Sequence record: PZ445527.1
Length of the DNA stretch: 64,000 nucleotides
DNA from: a phage
Reading direction: 5' to 3' (one strand)
Shown here piece by piece: positions 1,587 through 57,049 of the stretch (positions are counted from its first letter, which is position 1; every line of letters begins with the position of its first letter). The translations under genes were made by a program, and so were the position numbers. The notes beneath the pieces are model-generated. The model was not told the DNA's origin. It worked only from the letters and a program-made list of their open reading frames with translations, and did not search any database.

Positions 1587-1994
1587 TTATTCGCCTGCGG
1601 CTTGTTTTACTTCATCGGCAACGCCTAACAGCTGCGCCACGGCGTCCAGCGTTTCTAATTTTGCGCTTTCCAGGGATGCCAGATCGTCAACGTCTTTGAT
1701 AATGCCGGAATCAATGGCATGTTTTGCAATAACGCGCACGTAATGCGCTTTGCGGATAGAACTACCGCCGCCAACTTTGCGCGGCTTATCGCTTTTCTGA
1801 TACGCTTTCGCGCTGGTCAATTTTGAGCGAACGGACACGGGAGAAGTCGCGCCAACTGCTTTTGCAATTTCTCTCAGGCCGTCGCTGTTGGCGAACTCCA
1901 AGCCGTTCTCATTGATTAGCTGTTGATACATGGTAACAGCCTGCTGGGTGTTTTCTTCATTCCAAGAGAATTTTGCGGTTTTAACGTTAGTCAT
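1587..1994 (-). CDS. hypothetical protein 135 aa (possible pre-early A2-like DNA-binding protein)
   Basis: ORF track; size and position next to the A1-like gene; no motif recognised. Confidence 0.45.
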   Translation of the reverse strand: MTNVKTAKFSWNEENTQQAVTMYQQLINENGLEFANSDGLREIAKAVGATSPVSVRSKLTSAKAYQKSDKPRKVGGGSSIRKAHYVRVIAKHAIDSGIIKDVDDLASLESAKLETLDAVAQLLGVADEVKQAAGE

Positions 1995-2090
1995 GATATA
2001 AACTCCAATTAATTTAATTTAAGGGATAAGATTAACACAATGTTAATCGTTATATACCCCGAACTGCTGGGGTATATAAAGTTAACACTA

Positions 2091-2342
2091 TTACGCTACA
2101 GCTTCCCATTTTTCGTTACGTTGAACAACCTTTACAACGTCGCCGGATTTAACGCGAACGTTATAAATAGTTTTCCCGTTGTTACTCCGTTCCGTTTCAG
2201 CGTAAACCGCATCAATTACATCAAACGGCATAAGCGACGCGCCTTTAATGCGTTCGGCTTTTCCGGTTAGTTCATCCGTTTTAGTAACGAAAGGAATGAA
2301 GACGGATTGACCAATTTTCGGCGCATTAGTAACGTTTTTCAT
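2091..2342 (-). CDS. hypothetical protein 83 aa
   Basis: ORF track; GGAG 8 nt upstream of ATG; inverted repeat attacctg/caggtaat at 2378-2404 upstream. Confidence 0.45.
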   Translation of the reverse strand: MKNVTNAPKIGQSVFIPFVTKTDELTGKAERIKGASLMPFDVIDAVYAETERSNNGKTIYNVRVKSGDVVKVVQRNEKWEAVA

Positions 2343-2569
2343 AGTATAAACTCCAGTTTATTTCGTGGATTGTTCCGCATTACCTGCTAAAAAGTAACAG
2401 GTAATAAGAAAAAATCCGCTCGCCAATATAATCAATTTAAAGAACTCCACTCAGGCCGCTATATCCCGTTAGGGGGCGGGGCACATTTTGGCAAGTACCG
2501 GCCGTCAAATTGTATCAAGTTATCGCTCTTATCGAACTGGGTACATCTTAAAGCCTATCGGCTAGGGTG

Positions 2570-2773
2570 TCAAACTATTTTTTGCAGTTTTTTATGATTT
2601 TCCTTCAGGTCGATCATAATATTTCGCCAGATCATTTCTAGACCTTGCTGGCGGCCTTTCTTGTACTGCTTAAATCGATATTTTACCGATCTTTGCGCTA
2701 TTGTCAATAGCTTTCTAGTATTGCCATCCAGTTTTTTGGCTGGTTTACCAGTGACTAATAAAGTTTGTTTCAT
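2570..2773 (-). CDS. hypothetical basic protein 67 aa
   Basis: ORF track only. Confidence 0.3.
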   Translation of the reverse strand: MKQTLLVTGKPAKKLDGNTRKLLTIAQRSVKYRFKQYKKGRQQGLEMIWRNIMIDLKENHKKLQKIV

Positions 2774-3446
2774 ATCTGCGATCCCTTATAATGTAATAAG
2801 TTTGCCGCCGATAGACTTTAAGATATACCCAATTTTTAAAGAGCGCGGCGGTAAACTTCCCGCCGTGTAGTTCGTCATTGCCGCCCTACGAGATAAATAA
2901 TAACAAATGCCAAAAATGGCGCAACCTTATTTTTGTAAAGAAACGTAAAGAAAGCAAATACTCGCACCGCGTCCGGCGATTGCCCAAGTTTAAAGGAAAC
3001 GGGCGCGCGGATACCATAAAATCCAGCAGATAGGCAAGTAATTTTTTCATTTATATTTGCCTTGCCCTACTTGATTTTTCTAGAATCCATCAGGTGACGA
3101 TAAACGGGCTATCCCTTTATGATGGGATACCTGAAAAATTTACCTCGTTGTAGGACGTTTTAGGCCGCTTATTTTCGAGTTAACAAATATTTAACAAAAG
3201 CAAAATTGAAAAATAGTTGTAAAAGGTATTGACTTTTAAAAATCAAGATTAAACGAGTTATTTTATAAAATTAATTAATTGACTTTTATTTGTTGTTGTG
3301 TACTAGAAAGATAGCAGACTAATAATTACTAGAATGATAATCATGCTGGTGGATTGTAACAGCCTGAACCATTAGCAGACTACTAATTCCGGAAAATCTC
3401 ATTAGCCAACTAACTATTTCCTGAGTTATAATATAAACATAAATTA

Positions 3447-3747: not shown

Positions 3748-3963
3748 GGTAAAAAGGTAGTGTTAACGACTGCAATCAATTTTAAGCGGCCTAAATCGCT
3801 TTCTAACGAGCTAAATGATGCGGGGTAATATTAAAGTAAAGCCTCCACCCGTTGCCCTGGGTGAAGGGTATTGATATTTCTACTTTTACCGTTAACAACG
3901 AAAACGAGTAATAATTAACCTAATGTAAAGTTTTGTAAAGGTCGCCATAATCGGTGGCTTTTT

Positions 3964-3972
3964 TGTTATAAT
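3964..3972 (+). promoter_or_regulatory. candidate extended -10 promoter (TGtTATAAT) for the small-gene cassette
   Basis: TATAAT at 3967-3972 with TG at -15/-14; weak -35. Confidence 0.3.
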
Positions 3973-4031
3973 GCCCCTACACCGTTTGAGGACGGTTGAA
4001 AATTTTCCCAAAAAAATTTTGGAGGCTTAAA

Positions 4032-4262
4032 ATGGTTGCGTATTCTTCTTCTGACGCTCTTTTCACTGGAAAAGGCTGGGTATCAAATCGCTGGATCATT
4101 CAAGAAATGGTGCGGGAGTTCGGCATTGCTAAAACTTACACTACCATTCAGGCGCTTTATGATAATGATCAAATCGATCAGCAAACGGCGGGCTTTTTGC
4201 TGGATACCCTGAAGGCGGAACATTGTACTAAAAAACAAGCCGCCAAAATTGCTTTAATGTAA
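4032..4262 (+). CDS. hypothetical protein (about 76 aa)
   Basis: ORF track frame 3996..4262; start moved to ATG 4032 preceded by GGAGG at 4021-4025. Confidence 0.5.
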   Translation: MVAYSSSDALFTGKGWVSNRWIIQEMVREFGIAKTYTTIQALYDNDQIDQQTAGFLLDTLKAEHCTKKQAAKIALM

Positions 4263-51211: not shown

Positions 51212-52051
51212 GTGAGGAACTGTACAGTGCGTAGATTAATTATTATTAGCGGTGCAGGTTTGAGCGTTGAAAGTGGTGTACGAGCCTTCCGTACTGATAC
51301 TGCTAGTGGTAAAGCATTGTGGGATGATTATGACTTAGAAGAGGTATGTAATATTCATGCCTTTCGTGGTAATTTTTATCATAAAACCCATATGTTTTAC
51401 AACAAGCGTCGTGAAGAGCTAAAAACTATTGAACCCAATCTTGCGCATCTTCGTATTGGTGAGTGGTATAAACAATACCCAGGTCAAGTAGTAAACTTGA
51501 CTACTAACGTCGATGACCTTATTGAGCGTGCTGGCGTTCCGCATAGTGACATTCTACATATTCATGGGTATTTAAAAGAGGTTGTTGTAGCTGACAGCTA
51601 CAATAGCAGTAATAAACGAGTTATTGATGTTGGGTATAGCTCTATTGACCCAGATGATTATAAATGGGTTAAACCTAATGTAATCTTCTTTGGTGAGCAT
51701 GCTCCAGCGTACGCAGAAATGTACAATATTTTTGATGGTATTACCAGTCAAGATATGATCGTTGTAGTTGGTTGCTCTAACCAAGTAATTAACTTCTACT
51801 GGGAATTATTCCCTGTTCTTAATTTGACTGCTGCCAAATTAATGGTAGTTAACTACTATGATAGTGCCCTAGCGACAGAGCCAGGCTATCAAGGTATGAC
51901 TCGTAGTGAGATGTACCAGCTGGAAGAACGCGGTATCCCTTACTGGAGTAAAGGGGCTGTAGATGCCTTCAGTGACCCTGATTTTATTACTCGTGTAGAA
52001 GCTCATCTAGAGGGTAGACCTTATATGCCGGGGAAACAAATATGTCCATAA
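51212..52051 (+). CDS. Sir2-family (sirtuin-like) NAD-dependent protein 279 aa, no zinc-ribbon cysteines
   Basis: GAGLSVESGVRAFR, TNVDDL and HIHG blocks; GTG start with GAAGGA SD; no CxxC pairs. Confidence 0.75.
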   Translation: MRNCTVRRLIIISGAGLSVESGVRAFRTDTASGKALWDDYDLEEVCNIHAFRGNFYHKTHMFYNKRREELKTIEPNLAHLRIGEWYKQYPGQVVNLTTNVDDLIERAGVPHSDILHIHGYLKEVVVADSYNSSNKRVIDVGYSSIDPDDYKWVKPNVIFFGEHAPAYAEMYNIFDGITSQDMIVVVGCSNQVINFYWELFPVLNLTAAKLMVVNYYDSALATEPGYQGMTRSEMYQLEERGIPYWSKGAVDAFSDPDFITRVEAHLEGRPYMPGKQICP

Positions 52052-52224
52052 TTAAATCTGTGTATACACACCCTGATGATATATTTGTATGGGCGGATGG
52101 TAGTTGGTGCTATCGCTGTGAGCTGTGGGAAATGGACTATAAATCCGATGACTATGGTGTCATATATGTTGATACGGTTGAGTATGATACGTTCTTAGAA
52201 AGGGACAAAAGTGGAAATAAGTAA
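52042..52224 (+). CDS. hypothetical protein 60 aa
   Basis: ORF track. Confidence 0.4.
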   Translation: MSIIKSVYTHPDDIFVWADGSWCYRCELWEMDYKSDDYGVIYVDTVEYDTFLERDKSGNK

Positions 52225-52719
52225 TACTCCGATTATTTTTCTAGACATTGATGGGGTGCTCAATTCGAGCATCTCCCACCATCATGCACCTGATGATGAA
52301 AAGATTTTCTTTGGAAGTGACTGGGTTTTCAAACCGCTTCTCAAGGCTTTTCAGGACTTTATTCGTCCTTCTCCGATAATGATTGTTGGAGTATCCTCAT
52401 GGTTCTCTGTCAGGAATGAGGTGGAGAACGTTCACATTATGACCGGATTAGGTCTTATCGATCGTTTTCTAGGTACAACGGATTTTACAGGGGGGTGGAT
52501 TATCTAGGGGTAATTCTGTTCTTCGTTTCGTTGAAAAGCATAAGCTCAAACATTGGTGTGTGCTGGATGATGCTGGTGCTATGATGTATCAGTATCCAAC
52601 AGTTATAGTCAATGGTAGGACTGGGATAAATCTTCAAGATTTAAAAGCTGTTAGCTATATGCTAGAATTTAGCCCAGATCTTGAAATGTGTAAATCCTTA
52701 CAACAATTTAAGGTGTAAA
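52211..52719 (+). pseudogene. HAD-like hydrolase gene split into two frames at a G6 tract (52490-52495)
   Basis: N-terminal ORF 52211..52507 carries HAD motif I (FLDIDGVLN); downstream frame to stop 52717-52719 continues with a WCVLDDAG-type motif; one fewer G would fuse them. Confidence 0.5.
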
Positions 52720-52720
52720 T

Positions 52721-53149
52721 ATGTTCAATAATGTATTCTCTAAAGAAGCTAACCCAATTTTGGTTAACTTTTGGCGTACTCTTCCAGCCAACCTATACAA
52801 TGAGGCTATTAATGCTCTGAAAATATGGTGTGAGAATAATGAAATCTCCTTTGCTTTTAAAGGTGAGATTGAAGAGGCTCCGTGTATTGGTTTAATTGTG
52901 CAGGTGGAGGATGGTCTTGAAGAGATTGTCGGCTGGAAAGAGTTAGATGAAATGGGCTTGGTTTTTGCATTAAACTATAAGCTGTTTATGCCTAATAAAC
53001 ACCGTATTGTTGTTAATTATAAAACCAGTGAATCTCCTGGTTTTCAAGTTAATGAACGGTATGGTTGGTCTTACTCACCAGAAGAGGTAAATGATGGTAT
53101 CCAAAAACTTCGCCGTTTTGGTTATCAAATTCCGGGTTTAACTGCCTAA
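52721..53149 (+). CDS. hypothetical protein 142 aa (paralog of next gene)
   Basis: ORF track; shared blocks PCIG...MGL..ALN..LF...PGL with 53159..53545. Confidence 0.6.
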   Translation: MFNNVFSKEANPILVNFWRTLPANLYNEAINALKIWCENNEISFAFKGEIEEAPCIGLIVQVEDGLEEIVGWKELDEMGLVFALNYKLFMPNKHRIVVNYKTSESPGFQVNERYGWSYSPEEVNDGIQKLRRFGYQIPGLTA

Positions 53150-53158
53150 GGAGGCACA

Positions 53159-53545
53159 ATGGAACAAGTATATTGGCGTCAGATTGATCCTAGTTTAGTG
53201 AAGCGTGCAGAGAAGCTGCTACAACGTTGGTTGGGGGTAAGACAAGCCTCCTTCACTTTTCCGGAGCAGCAAACGGATGATCCCTGTATTGGTGTTTTCC
53301 TATCAGGCTACGCTAGGGAATTGGATTGGAATGAGTTGTCTGCTATGGGTTTAATTGTTGCACTAAATTTCTTTTTGTTCCATCCACGTGGTTTGGCCAT
53401 ATGTCGTGTGCCTGATGACGGTTGTTCGCCCCATCTTTTACAGGTGAAAGATGATACTTGGGAGTACACTCCAGATATTCTCAAAGAAGCCAAAGAACAA
53501 TTGAATCGTGTTGGAATCTATGTTCCAGGCCTGAATGATGAATGA
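53159..53545 (+). CDS. hypothetical protein 128 aa (paralog of previous gene)
   Basis: ORF track; AGGAGG SD. Confidence 0.6.
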   Translation: MEQVYWRQIDPSLVKRAEKLLQRWLGVRQASFTFPEQQTDDPCIGVFLSGYARELDWNELSAMGLIVALNFFLFHPRGLAICRVPDDGCSPHLLQVKDDTWEYTPDILKEAKEQLNRVGIYVPGLNDE

Positions 53546-53568
53546 TTTTTATTAGCTGAACTCTAATT

Positions 53569-53593
53569 GCCGAGTCATTTTGGCTCGGTTTTC
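53569..53593 (+). terminator. rho-independent terminator
   Basis: Stem ccgag/ctcgg with TTTT. Confidence 0.55.
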
Positions 53594-53636
53594 TCTATGC
53601 TCAAAGACACTGGTAGCAGCCCCTGGAAAAATCTAC

Positions 53637-53665
53637 TTGCATGATGCTCAAAATCTTGATATAAT
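53637..53665 (+). promoter_or_regulatory. sigma70 promoter (TTGCAT-17-TATAAT)
   Basis: Consensus spacing; followed by a 590-nt untranslated leader. Confidence 0.7.
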
Positions 53666-54259
53666 ATTTATATTGAATTGAGAGACATTAGTAAAAATTG
53701 ATTTTGCTAATTTTTCTTAGTGAAGCTGACAAGGGATTTACGGCGAGAGGAATCGATGACCCGTAAATAGCTGCATAAGGTACGTTGCTAGAGCTTTACG
53801 AAAAAGTTTTTTCTTGTTTACAATCCGCGATACGGAACAGTTAGGCTGCCCCATTAAGGGTTGTTTTAACTATTACTAGTGTTTATATTGCATTAGTTAA
53901 TCTTCAATTAAGTGATCTGTGTACCCTGAATTCGGAAAGGTAAATCCAAACCGTGCATATTTAGCTCGTTATATAGGCAGAGTTTTATATGGGGGTGCGA
54001 ACGAAAAGAGCAGCGAATGGCGGCACGTACAGTAGTCACCTACCAATAGGATAGTGAGGACAAATAGAATCGGCTTAGCGGCCAATGACCTAGGTTCTAT
54101 TCTGTATATGAGCGAAGAGAGCACAGCACTGAGATATGATAACTTATTCATATTGTTTGATGATAATTGATGTTTACGTAAATAGTAGTAATAGTTGTTC
54201 TATTCTTTCTGAATAGTCCTAAAGAAAAGATTTCGATTAACCAACACAGGAGTATTATT

Positions 54260-57049
54260 GTGTTTTCTATCCTCCAAGGTCACGCCGGGTTTTCTCGTGA
54301 TTTAGCAACAGGTATTTGGCGAGAAATCAAAGCGGAAGATTATACCTTTGCCAAGCGATTCTCGAAAGAGCATCCAGAAGGTAAACCAGCTTCTATGCCC
54401 TTCAAATTTGATGTAATAGAAGAGCACGACCCACAAAGCCTTGCAGAAATGTTACCACTTATGAGACGTTTAACGTCTGACCCTCATATCGTTGCGGTAC
54501 GAGGTCGATGTCTTGCACCTAAAAATAATGTGCGACGTAAGAAAGATAACTTTAATGTATCTAATCCTAGTAATATTATTGCTATGGACGTGGATGGTAT
54601 CCTAGATACCGGTGGGTACGACAAATTTAACCTTGTTGGTATGGCCCGCCACATTATTAAGATGTTGAATAGTATTAGTGAGGATATGTTTCCTCTTGAT
54701 GCAGGCTTTATAGCTCATGCATCGTCTTCGGCTGGGCTAAAACCAGGTATCCGAATGCACTTAATGCTAGAATCTAACGTCAAGGTAACTCAGGGTCAGC
54801 TAAAGTTCTTATTTACATCTATCAATGATAGTAGTAAGCAAAAATTTGGTTTTGATATTGCCGACCTAGCTTATTATTCATCTGTCCAGCTCCACTATTT
54901 TGCCAACCCCTTATTTAGCGATGGTATTGTTGATCCGTTTAAAGCGGAGAGTAAGCCACGTCTGGTGTATGTTAAAGGTTCGAAAGTAAATTTGCCCAAT
55001 AATCTGGTTGACTATGAAACAACTAGAGGGGAGTTTAAAGAGGAATTCTACTCTTTACTCGATCAAATTAAAGGCAAAAAGATTGCTTCCGATAAAGTAG
55101 AAGAAACCATTAGCGAGTTAGAAGAGGCTGATGATGGAGTGTACTTGCGTATTATCCCCAAACTATACCATAGAGCATTAGAGGATGGTGTTGATTTTGA
55201 ATGGCTAGAACGTGAGATTAAACCAGCTTTATCTGAATATATTGCAACTAAAGATAACAGCCGTAATATTCAAGATTACTTTAATAACGGTCGTAAGCAG
55301 GCTCTCAAAGCGTTTGTTAATAATTCTAAACGTGAGATTCCATTAAATCTGAAAGGTGTTCCACTTAAGAAATTAGAAGTGGATTCTCCACCAGAAGTTC
55401 CATACCTGAAGATTAACATTGTGCCCCCAAAAGGCCATATAACATTTGTTAAGGCAAGTCTTGGTACTGGTAAAACTACGGCAGTAACTAAATGGCTGGA
55501 CGCAGGTGTTCTTCCGGGCAACTTTTTAGCAGTTACAAATACTAGAGCACTGGTATCTTCAAATGCTAAGAAATTTAGTGCAGGACAATATGATAAGTCT
55601 GTAGATATGCTTAATTTTAAACGTGGAGCTATTGATCGTATGTCCACAACTATTCACTCTTTACATAAGTTCAAAAGTTTTATTGGGCAAATAGACACCA
55701 TTTTTATTGATGAATGTGACGCTGTAATGAATGACCTATTATTCGCCCCAGTTGTTAAGCAACGTCGCGAGTGTATTCAAGTTCTACGTGACATCCTCAT
55801 GACAGCTAAGACTGTAATCTTATCCGATGGTGATATTAGTGCGGAAACAATTGAAGCATATGGTTCTTTGATTGAGTTCGATAAACCAGTTGCATTCTAT
55901 AATCATCACCGTAAGATGCTGTCAAAAGCTCATGCTTATGAGTTCCCTGATGAATCTAGTATTTGGGTTGCACTTCAGACCTCTCTAGAGATGGGTGAGA
56001 AATCTATTCTGGTATCTGATTGTGGGCCGGATGAACTGAATGAGAAGGGCATGGCGTTGCGTCGTAATACGGGTGCGTTAGTTAAGGAAATCCACTCAAA
56101 CTCTACGTCTGATGTAGATATTCGACGTATTCTGGATTACACAACTAATGAGTTAATTGACCAACAAATTGATTGCTTATTATGTAGTCCATCCGTAACG
56201 AGTGGTGTTGACTTCAACTATTTTGATAACGTATTCGTTATTACTAGAACCTCAAACCAAGCGCCAAACATGCGTTTTCAAGCAATCAGGCGCGACCGTG
56301 GTGCTCAGAATATCTATTATTTTATTGATAAATCCACTAGTGGGTTCTCTGCAGGTTCTGAACAATATAATATTGATGAAGGTTGGCTGGAGTTAGCACA
56401 GCAATTATACGCACGTCGCAGAGAGCTGGAATCTAGGAACTATACTAGTACTTTACGTTATTATTTGCTTGATCAGGGTGCAACTATTGATATTTTCAGC
56501 GAAAGCTGGGGAACTATTGAAGGTGCTGGTAAAGAGTACACAGAAGAGCGAATCAAAGCTATTCTGCACTCAACTCCTGATTATTGTGCTCCACGTCATG
56601 CGGATGCGTATGAAGCTAAACTACTTCTTGTCCGCTATTATCATCTTGAGTCTATTAAAGATGTAACAGTTGAGCATGTTGAACAATATATCAAAGATAA
56701 GCCGAATGATCGAGCTGCATTCTTCCATAAGATGCACGAGATGTTCTGGGAAGATATTAAGAAGTGTTCAAATGTGACCATTAAACCATTCATAGAAGCT
56801 CTGAAGGGTAAGAAGAAGGACTTCTTCCTTAAAACAGGTCAGAGTGCTAACCCAAAATATGCTAGAATGTATCTTGGTATGATGGGTATTGGTAAGGATA
56901 TGAACACTGAAAATATTGTAGACTGGTACAGAACCTATTGTAAAATCGAGTGTATGCCAATTCCTTTCAAATTCATGACAGAGGAAGAGAAGGCTATGGC
57001 AGAAGAAGTAATGTCAGAGCTAGGTGCTAGAAATGACAGTGAAGAATAA
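54260..57049 (+). CDS. Walker A/B NTPase, helicase-like; possible replication origin-binding protein 929 aa
   Basis: Walker A (VKASLGTGKTTAV), Walker B (IFIDECDAV); GTG start with ACAGGAG SD. Confidence 0.65.
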   Translation: MFSILQGHAGFSRDLATGIWREIKAEDYTFAKRFSKEHPEGKPASMPFKFDVIEEHDPQSLAEMLPLMRRLTSDPHIVAVRGRCLAPKNNVRRKKDNFNVSNPSNIIAMDVDGILDTGGYDKFNLVGMARHIIKMLNSISEDMFPLDAGFIAHASSSAGLKPGIRMHLMLESNVKVTQGQLKFLFTSINDSSKQKFGFDIADLAYYSSVQLHYFANPLFSDGIVDPFKAESKPRLVYVKGSKVNLPNNLVDYETTRGEFKEEFYSLLDQIKGKKIASDKVEETISELEEADDGVYLRIIPKLYHRALEDGVDFEWLEREIKPALSEYIATKDNSRNIQDYFNNGRKQALKAFVNNSKREIPLNLKGVPLKKLEVDSPPEVPYLKINIVPPKGHITFVKASLGTGKTTAVTKWLDAGVLPGNFLAVTNTRALVSSNAKKFSAGQYDKSVDMLNFKRGAIDRMSTTIHSLHKFKSFIGQIDTIFIDECDAVMNDLLFAPVVKQRRECIQVLRDILMTAKTVILSDGDISAETIEAYGSLIEFDKPVAFYNHHRKMLSKAHAYEFPDESSIWVALQTSLEMGEKSILVSDCGPDELNEKGMALRRNTGALVKEIHSNSTSDVDIRRILDYTTNELIDQQIDCLLCSPSVTSGVDFNYFDNVFVITRTSNQAPNMRFQAIRRDRGAQNIYYFIDKSTSGFSAGSEQYNIDEGWLELAQQLYARRRELESRNYTSTLRYYLLDQGATIDIFSESWGTIEGAGKEYTEERIKAILHSTPDYCAPRHADAYEAKLLLVRYYHLESIKDVTVEHVEQYIKDKPNDRAAFFHKMHEMFWEDIKKCSNVTIKPFIEALKGKKKDFFLKTGQSANPKYARMYLGMMGIGKDMNTENIVDWYRTYCKIECMPIPFKFMTEEEKAMAEEVMSELGARNDSEE

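What the first reader, a model, noticed from the sequence alone, without database searches (positions are those of the whole stretch)
52721..53545. Tandem paralog pair of unknown function
Adjacent genes 52721..53149 and 53159..53545 encode proteins of about 130-140 aa sharing ordered blocks (PCIG, MGL..ALN..LF, PGL at the C-terminus), indicating a tandem duplication, which is unusual in a compact phage genome.
Basis: seen in the sequence. Interest (0 to 1): 0.4.

Follow-up and report, generated by a model that had tools for sequence, protein, structure and literature searches.

The report
Conserved T5 paralog pair (DUF7415)
The two adjacent genes are real but ancient duplicates, the already catalogued T5.106/T5.107 genes found in essentially every T5-like phage; each protein is itself an internal double of a small domain of unknown function (DUF7415), so the finding is correct but largely ordinary.

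The parts
52721..53149 (+). P1 gene, 142 aa, ortholog of T5.106. It has two DUF7415 repeats plus a C-terminal helix, and its C-repeat signature is degenerate.
   Evidence: ORF. 99% aa identity to T5.106. Pfam DUF7415 114 bits. AF2 pLDDT 88 with order b-a-b-b, b-a-b-b, a. dN/dS 0.02-0.05.
52763..52906 (+). P1 N-terminal DUF7415 repeat (residues 15-62)
   Evidence: The N-half alone scores 65.2 bits against PF24187, whose gathering threshold is 27. Strand-helix-strand-strand at residues 14-61 in the model.
52925..53056 (+). P1 C-terminal DUF7415 repeat (residues 69-112). It keeps 7 of the 18 family signature positions.
   Evidence: The C-half alone scores 53 bits against PF24187. It scores only 28.7 bits against an HMM built from single-repeat relatives.
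53150..53158 (+). 9-nt in-frame spacer GGAGGCACA (Shine-Dalgarno GGAGG) between the P1 stop codon TAA and the P2 start codon ATG
   Evidence: Sequence. The same 9-nt spacing is seen in T5, Epseptimavirus EH4 and L091. In Sugarlandvirus the two genes overlap by 4 nt.
53159..53545 (+). P2 gene, 128 aa, ortholog of T5.107. It has two DUF7415 repeats plus a C-terminal helix, and its C-repeat signature is intact.
   Evidence: ORF. 93% aa identity to T5.107. Pfam 104 bits. AF2 pLDDT 95.6. dN/dS 0.19-0.24. T5.107 is called 'Fit' in the CRISPRi-ART screen (PMC11879866 supplement).
53165..53308 (+). P2 N-terminal DUF7415 repeat (residues 3-50)
   Evidence: The N-half alone scores 57.7 bits against PF24187. 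Strand-helix-strand-strand at residues 2-49.
53321..53443 (+). P2 C-terminal DUF7415 repeat (residues 55-95; the signature extends to Y103). It keeps 16 of the 18 family signature positions.
   Evidence: 50.6 bits against PF24187. 64.7 bits against the single-repeat HMM. Invariant N70, P76, W101 and Y103.
53569..53599 (+). Rho-independent terminator that ends the operon
   Evidence: 9-bp stem with 5 G-C pairs followed by a T-run. A terminator is annotated at the same place in T5.
51212..52051 (+). Sir2-family gene (T5.102 ortholog). It lies upstream in the same operon and is the most constant neighbour of the DUF7415 gene(s) across Demerecviridae.
   Evidence: Pfam SIR2 2e-24. Synteny in T5, Shiner, Slocum, DU_PP_V and EH4.
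52211..52718 (+). T5.105 ortholog (HAD_SAK_2 phosphatase-like), frameshifted in this window into two ORFs (52211..52507 and 52560..52718)
   Evidence: Alignment with T5 shows one extra G in a G-run near 52490-52495. Pfam HAD_SAK_2 4e-20 for the intact T5 protein.

Best explanation
Shown: the two genes are the last cistrons of an early operon (T5.100-like ORF, sir2, T5.104-like, frameshifted HAD, P1, P2, terminator). This operon lies immediately downstream of nrdD and its terminator, and upstream of the origin-binding-protein gene. They are ancient paralogs, orthologous to T5.106 and T5.107. Each encodes a small acidic protein (pI 4.2-5.0). Each protein is built from two DUF7415 repeats (beta-alpha-beta-beta) followed by a C-terminal helix, that is, a fused pseudo-dimer of a module that in many other phages exists as a free protein of about 75 aa. 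Of the four repeats, only the C-repeat of P2 keeps the family's conserved polar signature (W-N..S..G-L...I-N....H-P.G-L-A..R....G.S.......D-G.W-E-Y). Inferred: the proteins are non-catalytic binding proteins with one canonical binding site, carried by P2. P1 is a diverged but strongly constrained partner. They are probably made in similar amounts and may act as a hetero-complex. Their target would be a conserved component of the DNA-precursor or replication machinery during early infection. Under this view DUF7415 is an accessory module of the phage DNA-synthesis gene set.
Against: The contexts are heterogeneous. phiCTX carries the gene between capsid gene L and tail gene X, and other loci place it next to portal or terminase genes. 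Fusions are rare, about 10 of 120 representatives. Positions between nrd genes in T4-like phages are common landing sites for unrelated small ORFs (my own knowledge). Synteny within Demerecviridae may simply be inherited. The strongly conserved polar residues could equally mark a small-molecule site or an active site. The CRISPRi-ART effect is marginal, and that screen missed genes expected to be essential, such as T5.108. My independent single-repeat HMM does not detect the N-repeats, so their homology rests on the Pfam model and on predicted topology.
Confidence: 0.3

Rival explanations
1. Anti-defence proteins. P2, with or without P1, binds and neutralises a host immune protein, for example a system that depletes nucleotides or NAD. 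The duplication reflects diversification against different host targets.
For: The proteins are small, acidic, early-expressed accessory proteins. Free homologues sit in moron-like positions in P2-like and T4-like phages. P2 evolves faster than P1, with dN/dS 0.2 against 0.02. T5.107 affects fitness on a K-12 host, as the known anti-defence gene dmd does in the same screen for T4. One GenBank record labels a homologue 'anti-CBASS protein acb1'.
Against: The acb1 label has no support here: the same protein falls in PHROG 3954, 'unknown function', and has no other Pfam match. The signature is highly conserved across phages of Pseudomonas, Vibrio, Aeromonas and enterobacteria, which suits a universal target better than a fast-evolving immune protein. 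The pair is retained in all of about 523 T5-like genomes regardless of host. No PADLOC match was found, though that library holds defence, not anti-defence, proteins.
Confidence: 0.25
2. A small-molecule (nucleotide) binding domain or a minimal enzyme. The conserved N/H/R/S/D/Y residues form a ligand or active site at a repeat interface. P2 is the active subunit and P1 is a pseudo-subunit.
For: Polar residues (N19, H24, S39, R32, D47, Y52 in P0061 numbering) are invariant or nearly so across about 120 diverged representatives. Fusions exist to thymidylate kinase, dATP/dGTP pyrophosphohydrolase and ASCH-like domains. Related genes are embedded in nrd operons.
Against: No known nucleotide-binding motif is present, and there is no structural match to any ligand-binding fold. 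The domain is very small, about 50 aa. Fusions are rare and also involve non-enzymatic partners (Cox, DUF5405, DUF551).
Confidence: 0.17
3. An accessory of an RNA-repair or RNA-modification module, working with the upstream HAD_SAK_2 phosphatase-like protein and Sir2.
For: T5.105 matches the Pfam family 'HAD domain in Swiss Army Knife RNA repair proteins'. In Aeromonas phage Ah1 the free DUF7415 gene abuts rnlA. In Roth22 it lies in a block with an RNA ligase and a Nudix gene. Fusions and adjacency to DUF3850/ASCH (PHROG 986, 'RNA-binding protein') are seen.
Against: The HAD gene is frameshifted in this window. It is split or truncated in other T5-like phages and absent from Sugarlandvirus, Slocum and DU_PP_V, while the DUF7415 genes persist. 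Most contexts lack any RNA-repair gene.
Confidence: 0.08
4. P1 is a redundant, decaying copy with no function of its own.
For: P1 has lost 11 of 18 signature positions. T5.106 was 'Not Fit' in the CRISPRi-ART screen.
Against: P1 is the more conserved of the two: 99% aa identity to T5 while synonymous divergence is 0.22, giving dN/dS 0.02. It is intact in 523 records. It is predicted to fold confidently. It has been retained since before the split between Markadamsvirinae and Sugarlandvirus.
Confidence: 0.03

Closest known systems
Phage T5 genes T5.106 (YP_006934) and T5.107 (YP_006935), also listed as ORF098 and 'Aeh1ORF298c-like' in AY587007
   Same: Same position, order, spacing and operon. 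99% and 93% amino-acid identity.
   Different: Nothing material. The window phage differs from T5 only in its neighbours: T5.103 is absent and T5.105 is frameshifted.
Single-repeat DUF7415 proteins (PHROG 3954), e.g. phiCTX orf7, Klebsiella phage KpV477 gp071, Aeromonas phage Ah1 gp198
   Same: They share the DWNELS..GL..IN..HPxGLA..R..GxS..DDGxWEY signature with the C-repeat of P2.
   Different: They are 65-100 aa with one repeat and presumably act as homo-oligomers. They occur in P2-like prophages and T4-like or jumbo phages, in different genomic positions.
Single-copy two-repeat DUF7415 genes of other Demerecviridae (Serratia phage Slocum gp143, Pectobacterium phage DU_PP_V gp086)
   Same: Same two-repeat architecture and the same place after sir2 and before the terminator and the obp gene.
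   Different: There is only one copy per genome, and it keeps an intact signature (58-69 bits) even where it groups with the P1 clade. Signature loss in P1 is seen only where a P2 copy is also present.
Tautomerase superfamily (4-oxalocrotonate tautomerase versus MIF/CHMI). This is an architectural analogy recalled from my own knowledge, not a claim of membership.
   Same: A short beta-alpha-beta unit exists both as a free subunit of about 60-75 aa and as a fused tandem protein of about 120-130 aa.
T7 gp1.2, a small phage inhibitor of the host dGTPase. This is a functional analogy recalled from my own knowledge.
   Same: It is a small early phage protein in the DNA-metabolism gene set that works by binding a nucleotide-metabolism enzyme. 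This is the kind of mechanism proposed here.
   Different: No sequence or structural relationship was tested or is expected. It is a lead only.

Membership tests
Pfam DUF7415 (PF24187) | Score above the curated gathering threshold (27 bits) | tested here: met
   P1 scores 114.2 bits and P2 104.4 bits, each with two matched stretches. N- and C-halves scanned separately score 50.6-65.2 bits.
PHROG 2502 (two-repeat T5-type proteins) | Full-length match to the 134-position profile | tested here: met
   P1 2.7e-62 over profile positions 2-134. P2 3.6e-58 over positions 4-134. T5.106 and T5.107 are assigned to phrog_2502 in the PMC11879866 supplement.
Orthologs of T5.106 / T5.107 | High identity together with conserved synteny (sir2 ... 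P1, P2, terminator, obp) | tested here: met
   95% nucleotide identity across the region. The gene order is identical. Amino-acid identity is 0.99 and 0.93.
DUF7415 signature-bearing (presumed functional) repeat | Retention of the 18 invariant or near-invariant positions of single-repeat members | tested here: met
   This holds for the P2 C-repeat only: 16/18 positions and 64.7 bits. The P1 C-repeat has 7/18 and 28.7 bits. Both N-repeats score about -1 bit against the single-repeat HMM.
Acb1 (anti-CBASS 2H phosphoesterase); label on a homologue in GenBank PQ657795 | 2H phosphoesterase fold with two H-x-T/S motifs, about 150 aa | tested here: not met
   The labelled protein is 85 aa and falls in PHROG 3954, 'unknown function'. 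P1 and P2 have no paired HxT/S motifs (sequence). Neither matches any Pfam family other than DUF7415 at E<=1.
'Phage exonuclease (ACLAME 70)' and 'tail tube protein'; labels in some GenBank records | Match to a nuclease or tail-tube family or fold | tested here: not met
   No nuclease or tail-tube family appears in Pfam, NCBIfam or PHROGs. There is no structural match.
Tautomerase superfamily | Catalytic N-terminal Pro1 and the beta-alpha-beta tautomerase fold | tested here: not met
Known anti-phage defence system components (PADLOC-DB) | Match to any PADLOC model | tested here: not met
   No hit for P1, P2, the Sir2-like protein, the HAD protein or free DUF7415 proteins.
Obligate P1-P2 hetero-complex | Confident predicted or measured interface | not testable with these tools

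The most novel reading that the evidence does not exclude
The four DUF7415 repeats of P1 and P2 assemble into one asymmetric hetero-complex with a single surviving binding site. This would be a previously undescribed fold and family of phage factors that dock onto a universal host or phage DNA-synthesis component (for example ribonucleotide reductase or a replisome protein) and are needed for full T5 fitness.
Probability: 0.2. Interest if true: 0.5.

Novelty: already known. Interest (0 to 1): 0.27.

Why it matters
The pair itself is textbook T5 gene content and does not change any view of phage genome organisation. The family it belongs to has some value. DUF7415 is widespread in T5-like, T4-like, jumbo and P2-like phages. 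It has no structural or functional precedent. One member, T5.107, is among the few T5 genes of unknown function with a measured fitness effect. This locus also offers a natural dissection: four repeats with one intact signature, and single-copy relatives that keep the signature. That tells an experimenter which residues and which protein to mutate first.

Tried and rejected
1. Internal repeat by independent sequence tests. hhalign of N-halves against C-halves gave only a 17-column local match in a shifted register (E=0.0016, probability 16%). An HMM built only from single-repeat proteins did not detect the N-halves. The internal duplication therefore rests on the Pfam model, which may have been built with such sequences, and on the predicted topology.

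3. Heterodimer prediction. MAFFT placed P2 homologues on the wrong half of a fused query.

4. Literature. There were no hits for DUF7415 or T5.105-107 in main texts. HIDEN-SEQ and other essentiality papers hold no data on T5-like phages. The RNA-repair 'Swiss Army Knife' paper is not held.

5. Long repetitive proteins in the profile search (P0082, P0116 and others, with 5-13 short stretches) are low-complexity or tandem-repeat artefacts that match only profile positions of about 90-125. I ignored them.

6. I looked for two-repeat forms outside Demerecviridae. The queries returned only T5-like contigs or nothing.

7. The 83-aa ORF upstream of the DU_PP_V copy is not a remnant of a second copy.

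8. PADLOC returned nothing for the whole operon.

Full report
**What is there.** The window region 50.5-57 kb is colinear with phage T5 and 95% identical to it and its relatives (DT571/2, Bf23). The two ORFs in the finding, 52721..53149 (P1, 142 aa) and 53159..53545 (P2, 128 aa), are the orthologs of T5.106 and T5.107. Amino-acid identity is 99% and 93%. They are the last two cistrons of an early operon: a T5.100-like ORF, sir2 (51212..52051, Pfam SIR2), a T5.104-like ORF, the T5.105 HAD-like gene, P1 and P2. This operon lies downstream of nrdD and its terminator. It ends at a rho-independent terminator at 53569-53589. About 700 nt further on is the origin-binding-protein gene (54260..57049). 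The P1 stop and the P2 start are separated by 9 nt (TAA GGAGGCACA ATG) containing a Shine-Dalgarno sequence, and the two ORFs are in the same frame.

**Check of the observation.** BLASTP of P1 against P2 gives 31% identity over 124 residues, E=2e-20. Both proteins match Pfam DUF7415 (114 and 104 bits; gathering score 27) and PHROG 2502. AlphaFold2 models are confident (P2 pLDDT 95.6, pTM 0.89; P1 pLDDT 88, with only residues 1-12 disordered). Both show the same order of elements: strand-helix-strand-strand, strand-helix-strand-strand, C-terminal helix. The paralogy is real.

**A duplication within the duplication.** Pfam reported two matched stretches per protein. I scanned the halves separately. 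All eight half-proteins (window P1 and P2, Sugarlandvirus Shiner gp121 and gp122) pass the Pfam threshold on their own: N-halves 46-65 bits, C-halves 37-53 bits. This agrees with the repeated beta-alpha-beta-beta topology. There is a caveat. An HMM I built only from free single-repeat proteins detects the C-halves but not the N-halves, and hhalign of N against C is weak. The N-repeat homology therefore rests on the Pfam model and on predicted structure. On that basis the locus carries four DUF7415 repeats.

**Age and copy number.** P1-type genes are found at 80% coverage or more in 523 phage records, and P2-type genes in 525. These cover Tequintavirus, Epseptimavirus and the Klebsiella genus Sugarlandvirus.
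- In Shiner, gp121 is the P1 ortholog (35% identity, E=2e-24). It is only weakly similar to P2 and to its own neighbour gp122 (E=1e-5 and 2e-6). The duplication therefore predates the split of these lineages.
- Serratia phage Slocum and Pectobacterium phage DU_PP_V have a single two-repeat copy at the same position.
- A rough neighbour-joining tree puts the Slocum-type copy with the P1 clade and the DU_PP_V copy with the P2 clade. That pattern suggests an old duplication followed by differential loss.
- Both genes are under purifying selection, P1 more strongly. dN/dS is 0.02 against T5 and 0.05 against EH4 for P1, and 0.24 and 0.19 for P2.
- I found two-repeat forms only in T5-like contigs.

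**Asymmetry.** Free DUF7415 proteins (65-100 aa) share a strict signature. G13, L14, I18, N19, H24, G27, A29, G37 and S39 are invariant. W6, N7, S10, P25, L28, R32, D47, G48 and Y52 are nearly invariant (P0061 numbering).
- From the model-anchored alignment, the P2 C-repeat keeps 16 of these 18 positions and scores 64.7 bits.
- The P1 C-repeat keeps 7 of 18 and scores 28.7 bits. Its changes include N to K, S to D, H to M, GLA to KHR, R to V and DG to RY.
- The same holds in Sugarlandvirus: gp122 scores 53.2 bits and gp121 8.5 bits.
- Single-copy relatives keep the signature (58-69 bits) even when they group with the P1 clade.
- So the signature has decayed only where an intact paralog sits next door, while the decayed copy stays under tight constraint. 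This fits a diverged partner, not a dying gene.

**Function-related evidence.**
2. Charge. Both proteins are acidic, with pI 4.2-5.0 across orthologs, which argues against DNA binding.
3. Experiment. In the CRISPRi-ART transcriptome-wide screen of T5, T5.107 is one of 17 'Fit' genes (fitness -2.90, p=0.0215) and is described as of entirely unknown function. T5.106 is 'Not Fit' (-3.28, p=0.167) (PMC11879866 supplement). The effect is small, and the screen misses genes expected to be essential, such as T5.108. I treat it as weak support that P2 matters.
4. Context of free DUF7415 genes.
   - In 69 IMG/VR loci, 37 have the P2-type replication initiator gpA within two genes.
   - One locus has nrdA, DUF7415, nrdB in that order, and another has nrdA nearby.
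   - In Klebsiella Jiaodavirus the gene overlaps the end of nrdD and the start of nrdG.
   - Other neighbours include a UvsW-like helicase, DNA methylases and, less often, portal, terminase or capsid genes.
5. Fusions. Among 120 representatives clustered at 50% identity there are fusions to dATP/dGTP pyrophosphohydrolase (2), DUF3850/ASCH (2), DUF551 (2), thymidylate kinase (1), DUF5405 (1; PHROG 154 'replication initiation protein'), Cox (1) and PGDYG (1), plus a weak ClpX zinc-finger match.
6. Neighbours in Demerecviridae. The constant neighbour is sir2. nrdD is absent from the Slocum cluster. The HAD_SAK_2 gene is absent, split or truncated in many relatives and is frameshifted in this window.

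**Interpretation.** The anatomy and evolutionary history are well supported. For function, the most economical reading is a non-catalytic binding module attached to the phage DNA-replication and nucleotide-metabolism gene set. P2 would carry the one canonical site, and P1 would be a constrained, co-translated partner. I put this at about 0.3. Three rivals remain open: an anti-defence binder (0.25), a nucleotide or other small-molecule binder or minimal enzyme (0.17), and an RNA-repair accessory (0.08). The idea that P1 is merely decaying is contradicted by its dN/dS of 0.02. GenBank labels on homologues ('exonuclease (ACLAME 70)', 'tail tube protein', 'anti-CBASS protein acb1', 'Sir2' for T5.105) are not supported by any family or fold search here.

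**Verdict.** The claim that the duplication is unusual is not, because this is a fixed, family-wide, already catalogued pair (T5.106/T5.107; DUF7415; PHROG 2502). I add three things:
- the nested repeat architecture;
- the one-in-four survival of the signature;
- the link to replication and nucleotide-metabolism contexts.

The interest is modest. It is a good entry point to an uncharacterised, widespread phage domain with one reported fitness phenotype, but it is not a surprise.

Noticed in passing
window 52211..52718 (G-run near 52490-52495): The T5.105 ortholog (Pfam HAD_SAK_2, 'HAD domain in Swiss Army Knife RNA repair proteins') is split into two ORFs (52211..52507 and 52560..52718). The cause is one extra G in a G-run relative to T5. 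This may be a real pseudogene or a homopolymer sequencing error. The same gene is split or truncated in several other T5-like records (Gostya9, MET_P1-88, DT57C, SelmaRatti).
   Followed up: partly
window 52042..52224, compared with L001 (T5) 3837-4195: T5 carries two small adjacent genes, T5.103 and T5.104. Both are assigned to PHROG 5116 in the PMC11879866 supplement, though BLASTP finds only a 13-residue match between them. The window phage has only the T5.104 ortholog (97% identity). So a second small gene pair next door varies in copy number between close relatives.
   Followed up: partly
window 53147..53161: P1 and P2 lie in the same reading frame, separated only by TAA plus 9 nt (GGAGGCACA). 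This spacing is conserved in T5, Epseptimavirus EH4 and contig L091. In Sugarlandvirus the genes instead overlap by ATGA. No fused P1-P2 protein appeared among the 159 profile hits.
   Followed up: partly
window 53546..54259: A non-coding gap of about 715 nt lies between the operon terminator and the origin-binding-protein gene. It has no Rfam match and only short repeats (an 18-nt inverted pair at 53868/54179). T5 annotates an early promoter here. Whether the gap has a role such as a long leader or a replication-related site is unknown.
   Followed up: partly
L003 (Klebsiella phage KpV477) 4046-4264; L016 (IMG/VR contig) around 1872-3357: Free single-repeat DUF7415 genes are wedged inside ribonucleotide reductase operons of two different classes. 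In Jiaodavirus the gene lies between nrdD and nrdG and overlaps both. In an uncultivated viral contig it lies between nrdA and nrdB.
   Followed up: partly
GenBank records of relatives (e.g. LR597655, NC_103212, OP394141, PQ657795, NC_005859): Annotation labels on this family and its neighbour are inconsistent and unsupported. T5.106/107 homologues are labelled 'Phage exonuclease (ACLAME 70)', 'exonuclease', 'tail tube protein' or 'anti-CBASS protein acb1'. The HAD-like T5.105 is labelled 'Sir2 (NAD-dependent deacetylase)' in RefSeq T5.
   Followed up: yes
profile search hits P0082, P0116, P0160, P0184, P0194, P0205: Very long repetitive proteins (718-2734 aa) matched only the last third of the profile, in 5-13 short stretches each. 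P0082 is a perfect tandem repeat of about 53 aa. These are probably spurious matches to the W-x-Y-x-P-E..L..G helix segment.
   Followed up: no
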